A stretch of DNA of 64,000 nt from positions 90,038 to 154,037 of IMG/VR virus record IMGVR_UViG_3300020577_004280; one strand, written 5' to 3'. This stretch comes from a virus (taxonomy: Duplodnaviria; Caudoviricetes). Each line of letters opens with the position of its first letter. Position 1 is the first letter of the stretch. Shown here piece by piece: positions 1-14,006 of this stretch. Both the position numbers and the translations under genes were made by a program. Below the pieces are notes generated by a model. The model had not been told where the DNA came from. It saw nothing but the letters and a program-made list of their open reading frames with translations, and ran no database searches.

Positions 1-180
1 TTAATCAGAGACCTTAATTTTAATGCTACAAATTATGGTATGGGTGGTATGTATTATAATGAAGAAAGCTGCGAAGTAATAAATTCTAAGATAGAAGATT
101 TTGACCGCAGTAAGGCATACCATCATATGTTGGGTTTATGTGAACATAAAAATACTCTTGAAAGATTAAGAACACAATGA
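1..180 (+). CDS. C-terminal fragment of an upstream ORF (partial; probably part of the glycan operon)
   Basis: Frame 1 is open from base 1 (LIRDLNFNATNYGMGG...LERLRTQ) to TGA at 178-180, overlapping the next ATG (ATGA). Confidence 0.6.
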   Translation, partial: LIRDLNFNATNYGMGGMYYNEESCEVINSKIEDFDRSKAYHHMLGLCEHKNTLERLRTQ

Positions 181-1280
181 GAGTCTTATATATAAGTCAT
201 TTATTAGAACAAAGCGGGTGGGGTCAAGCTAGTAGAGATATTCTACAAGCTATGGATTCTGTCGGTATTGACGTAGTACCACGAATAGTTTACGCTAATA
301 ATCCAGCTTATAAACCGCAAGGTAGAATGTTAGCTTTACTACAGAAAAATAGTCAAAATTGTGATGTAGTAATCCAGCATGTATTGCCGCACCTATTTCA
401 ATATAATGGAAACTTTAAAAAAAATATCGGTTTATACTACTCAGAAAGTAGTAATCTAAATTACACACCATATTTTTCTTACCTAAATATGATGGATGAG
501 TTGTGGGTACCATCTAAATTGATGGTGCGTCAAGCTAAAGAAAGTGGCGTAAAAACACCAATATATCAAATACCTCACCCGTTTAACCAGATTGATACCA
601 GCAAATACAATAAGCTACCAATAGCAGAATGTGAGATTGATGATTATGTGTTTTATTATTTAGGAGAAGCCAGTCGCAGGAAAAACTTAAGTGCTTTAAT
701 TAGAGCTTTTCATGCAGAGTTTTCATTTAATGAACCTGTGCAGTTAGTTATTAAAGCTAATAAACCGGGAATGAGTAATATAGATTGCTCTAATTTTATC
801 AACGAAATTTCTGCTGCTGCTAAAGAAAATTCAAAACTATACTATAATACAAATAAATTTAAACAAGAAATTATTATCACTAGTGATATGACCGACGATA
901 ATATTAGAGAATTGCATAAAACATGCGATTGTTTAGTTGTACCTTCTAGTGGAGAAGCTATTAACCTTCCGGCAATGGATGCCTTAAACTTTGGTAATAT
1001 AGTGGTTGGTAATGCGATGACAGGTATTAGTGAGTTTATCAGACATACAGAAAATGGTTATTTAGTTGATGCTCATGAGAAAAAATGCTACGGTATGATT
1101 GAAGGATTTCAAGATATGTACTCCGCTCGCGAATCATGCTACGAAATAGATGAAATAGATTTGATGAGGGGTATGAGATGGGCTTATAATAATAGAGATA
1201 AAAATACCACTACACTATCTCCTACTATAGAGGAAGTTGGTTTAATGATTAAGGAAAGATTAAATGAATCAAGTAAGTAG
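177..1280 (+). CDS. GT-B (GT4-like) glycosyltransferase
   Basis: N-terminal SGWGQA, RRKNLSALIRAF, C-terminal DCLVVPSSGEAINLPAMDAL (ExFxLPxxEA-like motif). Confidence 0.85.
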   Translation: MRVLYISHLLEQSGWGQASRDILQAMDSVGIDVVPRIVYANNPAYKPQGRMLALLQKNSQNCDVVIQHVLPHLFQYNGNFKKNIGLYYSESSNLNYTPYFSYLNMMDELWVPSKLMVRQAKESGVKTPIYQIPHPFNQIDTSKYNKLPIAECEIDDYVFYYLGEASRRKNLSALIRAFHAEFSFNEPVQLVIKANKPGMSNIDCSNFINEISAAAKENSKLYYNTNKFKQEIIITSDMTDDNIRELHKTCDCLVVPSSGEAINLPAMDALNFGNIVVGNAMTGISEFIRHTENGYLVDAHEKKCYGMIEGFQDMYSARESCYEIDEIDLMRGMRWAYNNRDKNTTTLSPTIEEVGLMIKERLNESSK

Positions 1281-2259
1281 TATATTAAGAGAAGCTACAA
1301 GAAATAAATTAGATAGACTTAATATTATCACCGCTCCAACCCACGAAACCTATTCCACTAATATGAGCGGAGTAAACGCAGATTTCTATATGTTTCAACA
1401 TCCATCATTTAAAAAATGGAATAATTCTTTCCGTGGTATGCCAAAAAATCACAGATTGTTAGATGAAAGATTAGAATTAAAGCAACTCCCACAATATATA
1501 GATTATGATGTAGTATTAAGTCAAAATAAGTTTGGTCAATATGATGTGTTATCACAGATTGCCAAACACTACGGACTCCCATTAATCAGTCTTGAACATA
1601 CTCTACCAATGGCTGAATGGCCACCTGCTCAAATGCAGAGAATGAAAAGTATGCAGGGTGATATCAATCTATTTATTTCAGAATACAGTAAGAATAAATG
1701 GGGATTTGATGATGTCCCAAACACATACGTTATACATCACGGCGTAGATTCTGATACCTTTTGTCCGGGAAACAAAGAACGTTTACCTAGAATTTTATCA
1801 GTTGTAAATGATTGGATTAATAGAGATTGGTGTTGTGGGTTTAGTATTTGGCAAAGAGTAACACAAGGATTACCTGTATTTCCAATTGGAGACACAAAAG
1901 GATTCTCAAGACAGTCAAATAGTACAGAAGAATTAGTTGATTTTTATCAAACATCACAAATTTTTATTAACACGTCAACTGTTAGTCCAATCCCATGTGC
2001 TTTACTCGAAGGTATGTCAACAGGTTGCGCATGTTTATCTACAGCTACTTGTATGATACCAGAAATTATACAACACGGCTATAACGGTTTTATTACCAAT
2101 GATGAAAAAGAAATGCGTAACTATCTAGAGTTACTACTTAATGACGAGAAGTTAAGAAATGAACTTGGACAAAACGCAAGAAAAACCATAGTCGAAAAAT
2201 TCTCTTTGGAAAAATTTACTGAAAACTGGGATAACTTTTTAAGAATGGTGATTAAGTGA
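1264..2259 (+). CDS. GT4 family glycosyltransferase
   Basis: VIHHGVDSDTF, FINTST..PIPCALLEGMSTGC, EIIQHGYNGF, LGQNARKTI..KFS. Confidence 0.9.
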   Translation: MNQVSSILREATRNKLDRLNIITAPTHETYSTNMSGVNADFYMFQHPSFKKWNNSFRGMPKNHRLLDERLELKQLPQYIDYDVVLSQNKFGQYDVLSQIAKHYGLPLISLEHTLPMAEWPPAQMQRMKSMQGDINLFISEYSKNKWGFDDVPNTYVIHHGVDSDTFCPGNKERLPRILSVVNDWINRDWCCGFSIWQRVTQGLPVFPIGDTKGFSRQSNSTEELVDFYQTSQIFINTSTVSPIPCALLEGMSTGCACLSTATCMIPEIIQHGYNGFITNDEKEMRNYLELLLNDEKLRNELGQNARKTIVEKFSLEKFTENWDNFLRMVIK

Positions 2260-12021: not shown

Positions 12022-12591
12022 ATGAAAGTATACGTAGCAAAAACAAGAACAGAAAATAGAATAAATTCTGGAGAATTTGTAGTAGCATATAACGAAGAAG
12101 ATTTGGTACTACCAAGTTTTGCAAATTTAAATGTTCTACTAGAGTTATCCGATATTAGTTTTTATCACGTTGGTTTTAAGATGGGTGAAGTTCTCACTAG
12201 TCTAAGAAATCTTTTACCAAACGCTAAACTTGGTGGAGCAGAACTAGAAGATTTATATGCTGCTTATTCGCATAAATTATTTAATAATCGTGACTCTAAC
12301 ATTAATATGGAAGTACGTAATTTCCTAGAATCAACCGCTGGTGATAAATATGAGGTTGTGTTTTCTACAGAATTACTTGGTAAATACGGGTTAGATGACC
12401 AAAAACGAATGGTTAATAATATGTTGGCAGCTTCTACTAAGTATGTTGCTTTCCTAGAACCAACAAACGCTGATTTATGCGGTTATATTGAATTTTTAGG
12501 ACACGAAGTTAATAATACAACTGATGGTTTTATTGTAGTTACTAAAGTAGAAAAGAAAAATGACACAAAATCAAATACAAAAGACAAGTAA
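12022..12591 (+). CDS. hypothetical protein, possible degenerate methyltransferase fold
   Basis: AGGAG RBS; FYHVGFKMGEV and KYEVVFSTELL resemble MTase motifs I and IV. Confidence 0.5.
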   Translation: MKVYVAKTRTENRINSGEFVVAYNEEDLVLPSFANLNVLLELSDISFYHVGFKMGEVLTSLRNLLPNAKLGGAELEDLYAAYSHKLFNNRDSNINMEVRNFLESTAGDKYEVVFSTELLGKYGLDDQKRMVNNMLAASTKYVAFLEPTNADLCGYIEFLGHEVNNTTDGFIVVTKVEKKNDTKSNTKDK

Positions 12592-13546
12592 GATACTGAT
12601 TACCGGCGGGTCTAGCATGATTGGTAAGCATCTATATAAAGCCCTGCTATATCGCGGTTATAGAAATATTAAATATAGTGGATTTAGCCAAGACGAATCT
12701 AATGATGGCGGTGTACATAGATTTGGTTTTGACCTAACTGATGCGGAAGATACAGAGTCATTATTCCGTGCTGCGCGGTCACAATATGTATTCAATCTAG
12801 CCGGATACAATGGCAACATCTCTTTCAGTCAAAAGTACCAAGCTGACATCTTCTTTAAAACTAGTCAGATAGCCTTAAACAGTCTATACTACGCTCATAA
12901 ATATGAGGTAACAAAGTGTGTTAATATCCTATCTTCTTGTGCTATTGCTGACCTAGGTGATAAGAAACTAAAAGCAGAAGAACTATGGAATGGCCCACCT
13001 AATCAAACTATAGAAGCGCACGGTTTTGCTAAACGAATTTGGGATGCCTATTCTCGTCAACTATTTAAACAACACAACTTTAACTCAGTATGTGCTATTG
13101 TTAATAACTCTTATGGAGAATTCGATAATACTGATATTGAAAAGACAAAAGCTGTAATGGGTATTATCAAACGTGTGGTGAATGCTAAAAGACAAAATTT
13201 ACCATATATAGAATGCTGGGGTAGTGGACAGGTATTTCGCGAGTTTATCTATGCTGGTGACGTAGCCAACGCTTTAATCGATGTAATGGAAAATTATAAT
13301 AATCCTATGTGCCCAATTAATGTAAGCACAGAAGATGAAATTTCAATTTATGACCTGACATATAAAATTGCGGAAATAGTTGGTTATACTGGTGAAATTA
13401 AGTGGGATACTACAAAACCAGATGGTCAAAAGAGAAAATCACTAGATATATCTAATATGCGAGAATACGTAAAATCTGAATTTACACCAATCGAAATCGG
13501 TATACGCAAGACTATCGAATGGTATATGGAGAATTATAATGATTAG
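12560..13546 (+). CDS. GDP-L-fucose synthase (Fcl/WcaG)-like epimerase/reductase
   Basis: ILITGG, FDLTD, LSSC, WGSGQVFREFIY, PINV, WDTTKPDGQKRK. Confidence 0.85.
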   Translation: MTQNQIQKTSKILITGGSSMIGKHLYKALLYRGYRNIKYSGFSQDESNDGGVHRFGFDLTDAEDTESLFRAARSQYVFNLAGYNGNISFSQKYQADIFFKTSQIALNSLYYAHKYEVTKCVNILSSCAIADLGDKKLKAEELWNGPPNQTIEAHGFAKRIWDAYSRQLFKQHNFNSVCAIVNNSYGEFDNTDIEKTKAVMGIIKRVVNAKRQNLPYIECWGSGQVFREFIYAGDVANALIDVMENYNNPMCPINVSTEDEISIYDLTYKIAEIVGYTGEIKWDTTKPDGQKRKSLDISNMREYVKSEFTPIEIGIRKTIEWYMENYND

Positions 13547-14006
13547 ATGTGGTATTATGGTGGATTCACTAGCTCCATCACAATTAACGTTTTATTTAGT
13601 GAATTATGTAAATACGATTATGTCACAGTCGGTACATAACCATTTTATATTTTTCCTTAACGAAATTACCCCGTTTTTAATCAATCCTCTCTGTCCTTGT
13701 TTAAACTCTACTGAAATTGTTCAATTCAATGACGGAATCATCGTCACTACAACTTTAAATGACACGCTGAGAGCGATACACGCAATACATAATTCATCTA
13801 TTAAATTTTACGTATGGGACTTGGAATGGATACGTCGCCCATTAGATTATTTCACTAATTATTACATTTTTAATAATCCAAGGGTTGAGATTATCGCTCG
13901 CTCACACGAACACGCAAAAATGATAGAAAACTATGCTAATCTAAAAAAGGTTAGAGTAGTAGAAAACTGTGATATGGAGAAAATATTATGCCTACGCCAA
14001 GATTAG
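13539..14006 (+). CDS. hypothetical protein (last gene of the glycan operon)
   Basis: FYVWDLEW motif; coupled to both neighbours. Confidence 0.55.
   Translation: MIRCGIMVDSLAPSQLTFYLVNYVNTIMSQSVHNHFIFFLNEITPFLINPLCPCLNSTEIVQFNDGIIVTTTLNDTLRAIHAIHNSSIKFYVWDLEWIRRPLDYFTNYYIFNNPRVEIIARSHEHAKMIENYANLKKVRVVENCDMEKILCLRQD

What the first reader, a model, noticed from the sequence alone, without database searches (positions are those of the whole stretch)
1..14006. Phage-encoded operon of about 19 genes for building a methylated glycan
Seen: a translationally coupled run of at least six glycosyltransferases from five families (two GT4, GT2, CgeB-like, GT25, GT17), four clear methyltransferases (two Methyltransf_24, FkbM, TylF) plus two MTase-like ORFs, three SDR sugar-nucleotide enzymes and a nucleotidyltransferase-like gene. 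It runs without a break into phage recombination genes, has the same AT content, and contains no flippase, Wzy, ABC exporter or priming phosphoglycosyltransferase within the window. Established: some phages glycosylate their virions or DNA with one to a few GTs, and giant viruses encode full glycan pathways. Inference: this is a cytoplasmic pathway for a complex O-methylated glycan, with the Ser/Thr/Asn-rich virion proteins in this window, or DNA, as likely acceptors.
Basis: partly seen in the sequence, partly recalled or inferred. Interest (0 to 1): 0.8.

Follow-up and report, generated by a model that had tools for sequence, protein, structure and literature searches.

The report
Marine phage sugar-coat gene cluster
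An uncultured, very abundant marine phage carries about 20 back-to-back genes for soluble enzymes that make, join and methylate sugars; its relatives share a fixed eight-gene core followed by a strain-specific set, so the phage probably coats its own particle with a variable glycan, though the target is unproven.

Summary
Window 1-14006 is the larger part of a 16.6-kb, 20-gene plus-strand cluster. It starts 2.6 kb upstream of the window with a GT4 gene that carries a 389-aa intein.

- **Contents:** 7 Pfam-recognisable glycosyltransferases, one further GT-A-fold protein, 4 clear and 2 weak methyltransferases, 3 SDR enzymes closest to GDP-sugar enzymes, and a nucleotidyltransferase.
- **Export:** none of the 20 proteins has a membrane segment. 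The 154-kb phage record and two complete relatives encode no flippase, polymerase, priming transferase or integrase.
- **Context:** upstream lie phage replication genes (split PolIII alpha, SSB), not a host O-antigen locus.
- **New here:** more than 200 marine metagenome contigs share an invariant 8-gene core. A hypervariable tail follows, with methyl-, sulfo- and sialyl-transferases, NeuB and aminotransferases in relatives. This resembles an LPS core plus O-antigen layout.
- **DNA as acceptor:** unlikely. The hydroxymethyl-base enzymes are missing, and GATC is fully purged.
- **Virion proteins as acceptor:** the best reading, at about 50%, and unproven.
- **Not supported:** the downstream "recombination genes".

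The scan has noted this family and many similar marine phage glycan clusters before, on other DNA. The published descriptions I found cover GT-rich islands in marine myophages. I rate this a new variant of a known kind, of moderate interest.

The parts
1..180 (+). 3' end of GT4a. The whole gene is genome 87410-90217 and encodes 935 aa. It is a GT4 glycosyltransferase interrupted by a 389-aa intein at aa 106-494, and it also has a CxxC...CxxC insert. It is the first gene of the cluster and a core gene.
   Evidence: Pfam finds Glycos_transf_1 7.5e-11 and LAGLIDADG_3 8.6e-13, plus Hint-type hits below cut-off. The intein begins with Cys and ends ...HN|C. All 20 homologues examined are 539-570 aa and align on both sides of the insert.
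177..1280 (+). GT4b glycosyltransferase (core)
   Evidence: Glycos_transf_1 1.4e-14. Present in 47 of 48 long related loci.
1264..2259 (+). GT4c glycosyltransferase (core)
   Evidence: Glycos_transf_1 5.8e-17. Present in 48 of 48 loci at a median 53% identity. 201 metagenome stretches encode a relative.
2256..2702 (+). u148: small protein resembling a class I methyltransferase (core)
   Evidence: No Pfam hit. Atlas neighbours are viral clusters; one, at score 0.92, has Methyltransf_11 in 92% of members. The profile against PDB gives only TehB-type hits at E 0.14. Present in 47 of 48 loci.
2702..3529 (+). u275: N-terminal four-Cys module plus a GT-A (nucleotide-diphospho-sugar transferase) fold. 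Probably an eighth glycosyltransferase (core, fast-evolving).
   Evidence: C6, C9, C22 and C54 are invariant in 15 homologues. The AF2 model has pLDDT 77.6. Foldseek finds mannosylglycerate synthase, GT8, EXTL2 and GlyE at E 4e-5 to 1e-4, with TM only about 0.4. A gene sits at this position in all 20 loci.
3492..4286 (+). GT2 glycosyltransferase (core)
   Evidence: Glycos_transf_2 9.2e-19. Present in 48 of 48 loci.
4159..4995 (+). u278: sugar-phosphate nucleotidyltransferase-like protein (core). The likely true start is the ATG at 4279.
   Evidence: The profile of 15 homologues matches GlmU 2.9e-6 and IspD 3.6e-4. The consensus shows a G-x-G-x-R...K signature. Start codon check.
4999..6060 (+). 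CgeB-like GT-B glycosyltransferase (core; last core gene)
   Evidence: Glyco_trans_1_2 8.2e-22. 31 IMG/VR loci carry it at 42-53% identity.
6048..6950 (+). SDR1: NDP-sugar 4-epimerase-like enzyme
   Evidence: Epimerase 3.2e-33. The best PDB hits are 8RDG (3e-44), 3EHE and 3AW9. PMC12171764 places these in the promiscuous GDP-sugar 4-epimerase subgroup.
6943..7614 (+). GT25-like glycosyltransferase (variable part)
   Evidence: Glyco_transf_25 3.2e-5, 24.3 bits against a cut-off of 24. Present in 31 of 48 loci.
7611..8818 (+). Two Methyltransf_24 O-methyltransferase-type genes, 7611-8171 and 8168-8818 (variable part; rare)
   Evidence: 1.4e-20 and 4.3e-16. Each is present in 3 of 48 loci.
8818..9510 (+). 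FkbM-family methyltransferase (variable part)
   Evidence: Methyltransf_21 6.4e-15. Present in 8 of 48 loci.
9498..10409 (+). GT17-like glycosyltransferase (variable part; rare)
   Evidence: Glyco_transf_17 1.7e-9. Present in 2 of 48 loci.
10399..11046 (+). TylF-type O-methyltransferase (variable part)
   Evidence: TylF 5.2e-12. Present in 6 of 48 loci.
11077..12012 (+). SDR2: sugar-nucleotide dehydrogenase/epimerase-like enzyme
   Evidence: Epimerase 9.1e-31. The best PDB hit is 6VO6, E 5.2e-53, deposited as 'putative sugar-nucleotide epimerase/dehydratase'. From memory this is C. jejuni Cj1427, a GDP-heptose C4-dehydrogenase. I could not confirm the PDB code in the papers I read.
12022..12591 (+). 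u189: weak methyltransferase-like ORF, seen only in this phage
   Evidence: TIGR03587 1.8e-5, below its cut-off. Present in 0 of 48 loci.
12560..13546 (+). SDR3: GDP-L-fucose-synthase-like enzyme with an altered catalytic motif
   Evidence: NF047922 8.8e-50, below the equivalog cut-off. PDB GDP-fucose synthases hit at 1e-43. The motif is HGFAK instead of YxxxK, and TK replaces SH. Both changes are kept in 12 relatives at about 35% identity.
13539..14006 (+). u155: conserved alpha/beta protein of unknown function that always follows SDR3
   Evidence: No Pfam, PHROG or NCBIfam hit. The AF2 model has pLDDT 67. GT-B N-terminal-half-like matches are weak: Foldseek E 9e-3 or worse, VIA Z 6.5 or lower. 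The fold assignment is inconclusive.
13988..14764 (+). HTH + DUF559 endonuclease-like gene flanking the cluster. It is conserved at this position in relatives.
   Evidence: DUF559 5.2e-5. phrog_559 HNH endonuclease 1.3e-12. Present in 14 of 20 ordered loci, between u155 and u335.
44965..48420 (-). Six small genes beside the probable major capsid gene (48535-49536). They form a hypervariable, Ser/Thr-rich block and are candidate acceptors. This is inference only.
   Evidence: They hold ranks 1, 4, 5 and 9 of 178 ORFs by S+T content, hypergeometric p 7e-5. They have no homologues in relatives G001/G002, but the same position there also holds those genomes' most S/T-rich ORFs. One of these in G001 matches a fibre-tail adaptor family, PF23148, at 1e-14.

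Best explanation
This is a self-contained cytoplasmic glycosylation pathway of a lytic, uncultured marine tailed phage.

- **Core.** Eight genes are present in every relative that covers the region. They are three GT4, one GT2, one CgeB-like GT-B, one Cys4 + GT-A-fold protein, a nucleotidyltransferase and a small methyltransferase-like protein. They activate a sugar and assemble a conserved core oligosaccharide.
- **Sugar supply.** Three SDR enzymes of GDP-sugar type (4-epimerase-like, Cj1427-like, and a fucose-synthase-like enzyme with His in place of the catalytic Tyr) supply a modified sugar.
- **Strain-specific tail.** Here it comprises GT25, GT17, two Methyltransf_24, FkbM, TylF and one more MTase-like gene. 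These extend and O-methylate the glycan.
- **Acceptor.** Nothing in the phage can move a glycan across a membrane. The product is therefore most likely put directly onto phage proteins before assembly, giving the particle a glycan coat with a constant inner part and a variable outer part.

Shown: gene content, solubility, phage origin, the core/variable architecture, and the absence of export and of base-hydroxymethylation genes. Inferred: the order of reactions, GDP-linked donors, O-methylation of sugars, and above all the virion as acceptor.
For: **Gene content and layout**
- Domain content.
- All 20 proteins lack membrane segments, and the genes overlap.
- The phage has a 2691-aa tape measure, a portal and TerL. 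Upstream of the cluster are SSB, PolIII alpha and an exonuclease.

**Absences**
- The record has no Bac_transf, no canonical PF00483 NTP_transferase (the divergent GlmU/IspD-like u278 is the only candidate) and no large multi-TM protein.
- The two 100%-complete relatives also have no large multi-TM protein.
- None of the three genomes has a tyrosine integrase.
- There is no copy in 185,579 species genomes. This argues against a temperate, host-converting lifestyle.

**Comparative evidence**
- The same gene order GT4a-GT4b-GT4c-u148-u275-GT2-u278-CgeB occurs in 20 of 20 ordered loci and about 47 of 48 long loci, at 25-53% identity.
- The tail is variable. Over 99 non-redundant ORFs its census holds SDRs, many methyltransferase families, GT8/GT25/GT29, NeuB plus CMP-sugar synthetase, sulfotransferases and an aminotransferase.
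- Contigs found independently through the capsid gene also carry the cluster where they cover the region.
- An intein sits in the first GT. By established knowledge of inteins, they favour conserved sites of genes the phage cannot lose.
- A hypervariable Ser/Thr-rich block lies beside the capsid gene in three genomes.

**Precedents**
- Mycobacteriophages glycosylate capsid and tail tube using three GTs and an O-methyltransferase (Freeman et al. 2023, as cited in PMC11600133).
- From my own knowledge, chloroviruses and mimiviruses build methylated glycans with their own enzymes.
Against: - No chemistry exists, and no acceptor has been identified.
- The Ser/Thr-rich candidates are not conserved with the conserved core. 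The probable capsid protein is not Ser/Thr-rich.
- Beta-rich fibre proteins are often Ser/Thr-rich whether or not they are glycosylated.
- The cluster sits in the replication (early/middle) block, not among the virion genes.
- Glycosyltransferases of O-antigen pathways are also soluble or peripheral, so lack of membrane segments does not exclude action on host lipid-linked intermediates.
- The core GTs have no detectable sequence relatives among 50,697 cultured phage records. Nothing links them to an experimentally studied system.
Confidence: 0.5

Rival explanations
1. Host-envelope remodelling. The phage enzymes act at the inner face of the host membrane on the host's own undecaprenyl-linked O-antigen, capsule or S-layer glycan intermediates. 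Host flippase and ligase export the altered glycan. This changes the surface of the infected cell, for superinfection exclusion or to stop progeny sticking to debris.
For: - This is the usual reading of GT-rich islands in marine myophages (PMC7029224; PMC12801897).
- GT25, GT2, GT4 and GT8 are typical LPS/CPS families.
- O-antigen GTs need no membrane segment.
- The variable tail mirrors the variability of host surface-glycan loci.
Against: - No priming transferase, flippase, polymerase, ligase or ABC exporter occurs in this record or in two complete relatives.
- There is no integrase and no prophage copy in species genomes. This is a lytic phage, for which seroconversion pays little.
- An invariant 8-gene core with its own sugar-activating enzyme, kept in all relatives and invaded by an intein, looks like an essential phage function. 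It does not look like a sporadic accessory gene set.
- A full core oligosaccharide built by the phage would need a host acceptor that is conserved across many hosts.
Confidence: 0.25
2. DNA hypermodification. The glycosyltransferases attach a methylated oligosaccharide to modified bases of the phage genome to block restriction. This would parallel T4 glucosyl-hmC or the C5-MT/5mYOX/GT clusters.
For: - Phage GT clusters that put mono- to trisaccharides, including heptose, on 5hmC are described (bioRxiv 10.1101/2023.12.21.572611).
- The cluster lies next to replication and nucleotide-metabolism genes, including a dNMP kinase.
Against: - This record has no thymidylate-synthase-family hydroxymethylase and no C5 DNA methyltransferase.
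- The complete relative G002 has neither, yet keeps the core.
- Tet_JBP was not found, but the control for that search was silent.
- GATC occurs 0 times against 467 expected, and many 6-bp palindromes are absent. Relatives with the same core are split between zero and near-expected GATC. The cluster therefore does not spare these phages from purging sites.
- Eight GTs and six MTases are far more than any known DNA modification uses.
Confidence: 0.07
3. The product is a cytoplasmic free or lipid-anchored polymethylated polysaccharide, comparable to the mycobacterial methylglucose/methylmannose polysaccharides. Alternatively the targets are host proteins or RNA. Either way the product would serve phage metabolism or defence evasion and would not end up on the particle.
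For: - The pathway is entirely soluble, rich in O-methyltransferases, and has no export.
- The phage also encodes Ro60 and many Y-RNA-like genes. This rests on earlier scan notes that I did not test.
Against: - The methyltransferases belong to the variable part and are absent from the minimal versions of the cluster, so methylation is not the conserved function.
- The strain-to-strain variability suggests an exposed product under diversifying selection.
- No homology links the cluster to the mycobacterial pathways beyond generic folds.
Confidence: 0.08

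Closest known systems
Mycobacteriophage virion glycosylation (Che8, Corndog/Cluster O, Myrna; Freeman et al. 2023, Cell Host Microbe 31:1216; known to me through PMC11600133 and PMC13313380, as the paper itself was not held)
   Same: Phage-encoded soluble glycosyltransferases with an O-methyltransferase. They lie outside the virion operon, the phage is a siphovirus, and there are no export genes. 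The glycan goes onto capsid and tail-tube proteins.
   Different: - That system has three tandem GTs and one MTase. This one has 8 GTs, up to 6 MTases, 3 SDRs and a nucleotidyltransferase.
- No sequence relation was detected.
- The hosts differ: actinobacteria there, an unknown marine host here.
- Here there is a fixed core plus a hypervariable tail across hundreds of relatives.
- The acceptor is proven there and unknown here.
Sugar/LPS-type gene islands of marine myophages: the pelagimyophage 'host recognition cluster' (PMC7029224) and cyanomyoviruses S-SCSM2R, S-SCSM1 and P-SSM2 (PMC12801897)
   Same: Uncultured or marine phages with many GTs (up to 13) and NDP-sugar epimerases. These islands are hypervariable, lack flippases, and have untested function.
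   Different: - Those are T4-like myoviruses.
- Their GTs are scattered or lie among tail-fibre genes, with no fixed core.
- Here a strictly syntenic 8-gene core sits directly after SSB in the replication block of a long-tailed phage with PolIII alpha.
- The authors favour host O-chain modification. The lytic lifestyle and lineage-wide conservation seen here fit that less well.
Autonomous glycosylation gene clusters of giant viruses (chlorovirus capsid N-glycans with methylated sugars; Megavirinae fibril glycan clusters). This comparison rests on my own knowledge and was not checked in papers here.
   Same: The virus encodes sugar-nucleotide synthesis, glycosyltransferases and methyltransferases and glycosylates its own particle. 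The cluster content is clade-specific.
   Different: Those are eukaryotic viruses. No homology was tested. Their acceptors are known (major capsid protein, fibrils).
Phage DNA sugar hypermodification clusters (C5-MT + 5mYOX + GT; bioRxiv 10.1101/2023.12.21.572611) and T4 alpha/beta-glucosyltransferases
   Same: Phage GTs related to LPS/teichoic-acid enzymes, sometimes paired with an epimerase, sitting near DNA-metabolism genes.
   Different: The defining C5-MT/5mYOX or hydroxymethylase partners are absent here. Those clusters have one or two GTs. This genome purges GATC instead of protecting it.
Campylobacter jejuni capsular heptose modification pathway (Cj1427 C4-dehydrogenase plus GDP-fucose-synthase-like C4-reductases; PMC10680097)
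   Same: An SDR whose best solved relative is 6VO6 (E 5e-53) is paired with a GDP-fucose-synthase-like SDR. C. jejuni uses such a combination to make rare GDP-heptose epimers.
   Different: - No cupin C3/C5-epimerase and no GDP-heptose synthesis genes were found in the cluster.
- SDR3 has His in place of the catalytic Tyr.
- That 6VO6 is Cj1427 comes from memory only.
- The substrate is not known.

Membership tests
Mycobacteriophage-type virion glycosylation system | Phage-encoded soluble GTs with an O-methyltransferase, and no export genes | tested here: met
Mycobacteriophage-type virion glycosylation system | Glycans demonstrated on capsid or tail-tube proteins | not testable with these tools
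   This needs virions and mass spectrometry.
Mycobacteriophage-type virion glycosylation system | Sequence relationship of the GTs to those of Che8, Corndog or Myrna | tested here: not met
   tblastn of GT4c and the CgeB-like GT against 50,697 phage records gave only two weak partial hits, to a fecal phage and a Staphylococcus jumbo phage. None was to actinophages.
Mycobacteriophage-type virion glycosylation system | Ser/Thr-rich acceptor segments on major virion proteins | tested here: inconclusive
   The probable MCP is not S/T-rich (0.105, rank 115 of 178). A neighbouring six-gene block is strongly S/T-rich (p 7e-5) but is not conserved in relatives.
Wzx/Wzy- or ABC-dependent O-antigen/capsule locus | Initiating polyprenyl-phosphate sugar transferase (Bac_transf or WecA type) | tested here: not met
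   PF02397 is absent, with working controls. The record has no multi-TM protein that could be WecA-like. PF00953 itself was not searched.
Wzx/Wzy- or ABC-dependent O-antigen/capsule locus | Flippase, polymerase or ABC permease | tested here: not met
   A hydropathy scan of all ORFs of at least 80 aa found that nothing with 3 or more predicted TM segments exceeds 222 aa. This holds for the own record and for two complete relatives. No profile search for Wzx/Wzy was run.
Wzx/Wzy- or ABC-dependent O-antigen/capsule locus | Location in a cellular chromosome | tested here: not met
   The cluster lies in a 154-kb virus record between SSB/PolIII alpha and the tail genes. There is no relative in the GTDB species genomes.
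Phage DNA glycosylation (T4-type or C5-MT/5mYOX/GT clusters) | An enzyme that makes a hydroxymethyl-pyrimidine acceptor (TS-family hydroxymethylase, or C5-MT plus TET/JBP dioxygenase) | tested here: not met
   PF00303 and PF00145 are absent from the own record. Both are absent from the complete relative G002. PF12851 is absent, but its control was silent. G001 has a ThyA-family gene far from the cluster.
Phage DNA glycosylation (T4-type or C5-MT/5mYOX/GT clusters) | Modified bases in virion DNA | not testable with these tools
   Only indirect evidence is available: total GATC avoidance (0 observed, 467 expected) suggests unprotected DNA.
Marine myophage GT-rich hypervariable island ('host recognition cluster') | Non-syntenic island inside the structural region among tail-fibre genes of a T4-like phage | tested here: not met
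   Here there is a syntenic 8-gene core directly after SSB in the replication block. The phage has a 2691-aa tape measure, and no T4-like markers were seen.
Marine myophage GT-rich hypervariable island ('host recognition cluster') | Strain-to-strain variable set of GTs and sugar-modifying genes without export genes | tested here: met
   Variable tail and its census.
Giant-virus autonomous glycosylation clusters | The virus encodes sugar activation/modification, GTs and MTases together, with clade-specific content | tested here: met
   This is a functional analogy only; homology was not tested.
Intein (Hint + LAGLIDADG homing endonuclease) in GT4a | Cys at position 1, C-terminal His-Asn followed by Cys, an endonuclease domain, and precise absence from orthologues | tested here: met
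   The sequence reads ...PDHV|C...VHN|CDVRD. LAGLIDADG_3 hits at 8.6e-13. Twenty orthologues of 539-570 aa align across the junction. Splicing itself was not tested.
GDP-L-fucose synthase (Fcl/GMER) for SDR3 | Ser-Tyr-Lys triad and the Cys/His acid-base pair | tested here: not met
   The Tyr of YxxxK is His (HGFAK), and the His equivalent is Lys. The Cys is kept. The score is below the NF047922 cut-off, 170 against 500 bits. Residue equivalence was taken from motif position, not from a structure alignment.

The most novel reading that the evidence does not exclude
An extremely abundant, uncultured lineage of lytic marine phages wears an obligatory glycan coat that it builds itself. The capsid gene of this lineage falls in about 5,000 or more 90%-identity clusters in public metagenomes. 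A conserved core oligosaccharide is made by eight invariant genes. A serotype-like outer part follows, varying between strains in methylation, sulfation, sialic-acid-type sugars and amino sugars. It is attached to hypervariable Ser/Thr-rich proteins next to the capsid gene. In effect the virus particle would carry its own 'core plus O-antigen'. This would be the largest autonomous glycosylation system known in a bacterial virus, and would imply that phage surface glycans are a major, unmeasured variable in marine virus-host and virus-grazer interactions.
Probability: 0.4. Interest if true: 0.75.

Novelty: new variant of a known kind. Interest (0 to 1): 0.55.

Why it matters
Virion glycosylation has been shown by experiment only for a few mycobacteriophages and for giant viruses. 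If this lineage sugar-coats its particles, glycan shields would be common in the ocean's viral pool. That would bear on adsorption, aggregation, grazing, decay and the carbon content of viral particles.

The architecture also gives a clean experimental handle. The eight core genes and a few candidate acceptors could be co-expressed in E. coli.

Several parts may interest enzymologists: the three GDP-sugar-type SDRs, one with a conserved Tyr-to-His active site, the unassigned GT-A-fold protein, and the many methyltransferases. The intein in the first GT marks that enzyme as one the phage probably cannot afford to lose.

Tried and rejected
**Relatives and host**
- Near-identical DNA and portal-protein searches in 50,697 cultured phage records found nothing. 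The core GTs likewise had no useful hit, so no cultured relative or host could be named.
- The GTDB species-genome scan with the CgeB-like GT found no relative. That gave no host hint and no prophage.

**Regulatory signals**
- The promoter/terminator scan gave counts equal to shuffled sequence, so it says nothing about operon limits.

**Unknown and flanking ORFs**
- PHROGs and Pfam gave nothing for most virion proteins. The capsid assignment rests on position and conservation only.
- The fold of u155 remained undecided: pLDDT 67, Foldseek E 9e-3 or worse, VIA Z 6.5 or lower.
- u148 against PDB was not significant.
- u335, the supposed recombination gene, showed only a non-significant SAP-like N-terminus and scattered weak PHROG hits.

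**Candidate acceptor**
- The most Ser/Thr-rich protein (46497-47012) was tested as a conserved acceptor. No homologue was found in four relatives, so I rejected it as the conserved acceptor.

**Literature and tools**
- Searching papers for PDB code 6VO6 gave no relevant hit. The Cj1427 identity stays from memory.
- The Freeman et al. 2023 paper was not held.
I replaced it with a capsid-gene scan of IMG/VR plus searches of those records.
- The Tet_JBP search had no positive control and counts for little.

Full report
**1. What is there**

The window is bases 90038-154037 of a 154,037-bp linear IMG/VR virus record, estimated 82% complete. All ORFs from 177 to 14006 lie on the plus strand.

- two GT4 genes, a GT2, a Glyco_trans_1_2 (CgeB-like) GT, a marginal GT25 and a GT17;
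- two Methyltransf_24, an FkbM and a TylF methyltransferase;
- three SDR epimerase/dehydratase-family enzymes.

Five ORFs had no Pfam hit. Alignments with homologues from related contigs resolved some of them.
- **u278, 4159(4279)-4995.** A profile matches the nucleotidyltransferase domains of GlmU (E 2.9e-6) and IspD.
- **u275, 2702-3529.** It has four invariant N-terminal cysteines. Its AlphaFold model (pLDDT 78) matches GT-A-fold transferases such as mannosylglycerate synthase, GT8 and EXTL2, at E around 1e-4 and TM around 0.4. It is probably an eighth glycosyltransferase.
- **u148, 2256-2702.** A small methyltransferase-like protein, on weak evidence.
- **u189, 12022-12591.** It weakly resembles a pseudaminic-acid-associated methylase.
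- **u155, 13539-14006.** Unresolved.

The genes are tightly packed. Fifteen of 19 junctions overlap and the largest gap is 30 nt. GC is 0.323 in the cluster and 0.342 elsewhere. None of the proteins has a membrane-type hydrophobic segment.

**2. The cluster starts outside the window**

The gene that ends at window 180 begins at genome 87410 and encodes 935 aa. It is a third GT4 enzyme, GT4a, interrupted by an intein.
- The insert runs from Cys106 to Asn494 (...PDHV|C ... VHN|CDVRD...).
- It carries a LAGLIDADG endonuclease domain.
- It is missing from all 20 orthologues examined. These are 539-570 aa long and align on both sides of the junction.

The cluster is thus 20 genes and 16.6 kb.

Upstream lie SSB, the C-terminal half of a split PolIII alpha, an exonuclease, the N-terminal half of PolIII alpha, an AAA protein, a PD-(D/E)XK nuclease, a GMP-reductase-like enzyme and a dNMP kinase.

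Downstream I found an HTH+DUF559 endonuclease-like gene that is conserved in relatives, an unknown 335-aa protein, a weak nucleoside-deoxyribosyltransferase-like ORF and GroES. None is a demonstrable recombination gene.

The minus-strand remainder of the window is a virion module. It holds a 2691-aa tape measure, a portal and a TerL that itself seems to hold an insert.

**3. Relatives: a fixed core and a variable tail**

No cultured phage resembles it. Uncultured relatives, however, are plentiful.
- IMG/VR holds 31 loci with the CgeB-like GT at 42-53% identity.
- JGI, ENA and Tara metagenomes hold 201 stretches encoding GT4c, on contigs of up to 177 kb.
- The probable capsid protein (48535-49536) has at least 4,974 90%-identity clusters in public metagenomes, all unnamed. 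This is a very abundant marine lineage.

In 20 of 20 ordered loci the gene order is exonuclease, PolIII alpha-C, a ~120-aa ORF, an SSB-sized ORF (~165 aa), then GT4a-GT4b-GT4c-u148-u275-GT2-u278-CgeB. These eight genes occur in about 47 of 48 long loci at 25-53% identity.

After them the content varies.
- The shortest versions have only SDR1-SDR2-SDR3-u155.
- The window's phage adds GT25, two Methyltransf_24, FkbM, GT17, TylF and u189. Most of these are rare, each occurring in between 0 and 8 of 48 loci, while GT25 is in 31.
- Other relatives carry ten or more different genes.
- A Pfam census of 99 non-redundant ORFs from this variable part found:
  - 25 SDRs;
  - methyltransferases of eight or more families, including C-methyltransferases;
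  - GT8, GT25, GT2 and GT29 sialyltransferase-type enzymes;
  - NeuB with a CMP-sugar synthetase;
  - sulfotransferases;
  - a DegT aminotransferase;
  - a HAD-nucleotidyltransferase fusion.

All these relatives had been found through cluster genes. I therefore also collected contigs through the capsid gene and searched five long ones.
- The one that is 94% complete carries GT4c, and so does a 61%-complete one.
- Two fragments cannot reach the region.
- One contig starts just inside the 3' end of the cluster, with the usual flanking genes in place.

I found no counter-example.

**4. Which sugars?**

- **SDR1.** Its best solved relatives (8RDG at 3e-44, 3EHE, 3AW9) form the promiscuous GDP-sugar 4-epimerase subgroup (PMC12171764).
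- **SDR3.** It resembles GDP-L-fucose synthases (1e-43). The Tyr of YxxxK is His, and a Lys replaces the epimerisation His. This pattern is conserved in 12 relatives at about 35% identity, while other relatives carry a canonical enzyme at a different position. An earlier scan note had suggested this, and I confirm it from the sequences.
- **SDR2.** Its best relative is 6VO6 (5e-53). From memory this is Cj1427 of C. jejuni, which oxidises GDP-glycero-manno-heptose at C4 (function described in PMC10680097). I could not verify the PDB code.

Together these point to GDP-linked hexose, 6-deoxyhexose or heptose derivatives. That is an inference. The TylF, Methyltransf_24 and FkbM families are typically sugar or natural-product O-methyltransferases, which is family knowledge. 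O-methylation of the glycan is therefore likely but not shown.

**5. Where does the glycan go?**

*Export is not encoded.*
- PF02397 was not found, with good controls.
- No protein with three or more predicted membrane segments exceeds 222 aa in this record or in two 100%-complete relatives.

*The lineage looks lytic.*
- None of the three genomes has a tyrosine integrase.
- None of 185,579 species genomes holds a copy.

*DNA is an unlikely acceptor.*
- This record lacks thymidylate-synthase-family and C5-methyltransferase genes.
- The complete relative G002 lacks both while keeping the core.
- The known DNA-glycan clusters are defined by exactly those partners.
- GATC is absent (0 observed, 467 expected) and many 6-bp palindromes are missing.
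- Among relatives with the same core, 17 of 77 loci have zero GATC and the rest are near expectation. The cluster evidently does not replace site avoidance.

*Virion proteins remain the best candidate.* The arguments for this are:
- the precedent in mycobacteriophages;
- the lineage-wide conservation of the core;
- the intein in its first gene;
- the serotype-like variability, which suggests an exposed product.

The six genes between the probable capsid gene and the conserved connector/tail genes (44965-48420) include ranks 1, 4, 5 and 9 of 178 ORFs by Ser+Thr content, p 7e-5. They have no detectable homologues in relatives. Even so, the same position in G001 and G002 again holds those genomes' most Ser/Thr-rich ORFs. 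One of these is a fibre-tail adaptor family member. In G006 the block is 21 kb long.

This is suggestive only. Such composition is common in fibre proteins, and a conserved core glycan would be expected to have a conserved acceptor.

Host-envelope remodelling through host lipid carriers and flippases cannot be excluded. It is the reading favoured in the literature for marine myophage GT islands.

**6. Comparison and novelty**

- GT-rich islands in marine phages are published: pelagimyophages, and cyanomyoviruses with up to 13 GTs.
- This scan has already noted many marine phage glycan clusters (46 notes). They include a 14.5-kb island in another genome that shares sequence words with this cluster and has the same enzyme list (note e1-5726065).
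- What is different here:
  - the phage type (long-tailed, PolIII alpha, no cultured relative);
  - the position directly behind SSB;
  - the strictly conserved eight-gene core followed by a hypervariable tail;
  - the intein;
  - the combination of evidence against DNA and against export.

I file it as a new variant of a known kind.

**7. Verdict**

| Question | Verdict |
|---|---|
| Observation | confirmed |
| It is a phage-encoded, soluble glycan-building pathway | about 0.95 |
| The acceptor is the virion | about 0.5 |
| Interest | 0.55 |

Noticed in passing
genome 87410-90217 (window up to 180): A 389-aa LAGLIDADG intein (C...HN|C) sits in the N-terminal domain of a GT4 glycosyltransferase and is absent from 20 orthologues. 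The same GT also has a CxxC...CxxC insert. Inteins are unusual in glycosyltransferases.
   Followed up: partly
window 12560-13546: A GDP-fucose-synthase-like SDR has His instead of the catalytic Tyr (HGFAK) and Lys instead of the epimerisation His. Both changes are conserved in 12 relatives. Other relatives carry a canonical YGIAK/SH enzyme at a different position in the cluster.
   Followed up: partly
whole 154-kb record; relatives L007-L119: GATC occurs 0 times against 467 expected, and many 6-bp palindromes are also absent. Among related loci the trait is bimodal: 17 of 77 have zero GATC and the rest are near expectation. The complete relative G001 has 0 and G002 has 601.
   Followed up: partly
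window 44965-48420 (-): A six-gene block beside the probable capsid gene holds the genome's most Ser/Thr-rich proteins. It has no homologues in relatives, yet the same position in relatives is also Ser/Thr-rich and of very different length (3.5 to 21 kb).
   Followed up: partly
window 48535-49536 (-): The probable major capsid protein has no Pfam or PHROG match. It has at least 4,974 90%-identity clusters in public metagenomes, some seen on 95-150 contigs. This is an abundant marine phage lineage with no cultured member in the phage collection searched.
   Followed up: partly
window 53769-56936 (-): The large terminase is 1055 aa. Its middle part (about aa 200-460) matches helicase/endonuclease PHROGs. 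Relatives align only to the flanks, so it probably holds another intein or homing-endonuclease insert.
   Followed up: no
window 16974-17288 (+) and 18313-18768 (-): A phage-encoded GroES/Cpn10 co-chaperonin (2.8e-24) and a CAP/cysteine-rich secretory family protein (5.8e-7) lie just after the cluster.
   Followed up: no
window 13988-14764 and 18788-20368 (-): There are two HNH/DUF559-type endonuclease-like genes. The first is not sporadic: it is conserved at the same position, between u155 and u335, in 14 of 20 relatives. A mobile homing endonuclease would not be expected to behave this way.
   Followed up: partly
L002 (genome 70001-90000): PolIII alpha is encoded in two separate ORFs, with an RNase T-type exonuclease and other genes between them. 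A PD-(D/E)XK nuclease carries a LAGLIDADG domain.
   Followed up: no
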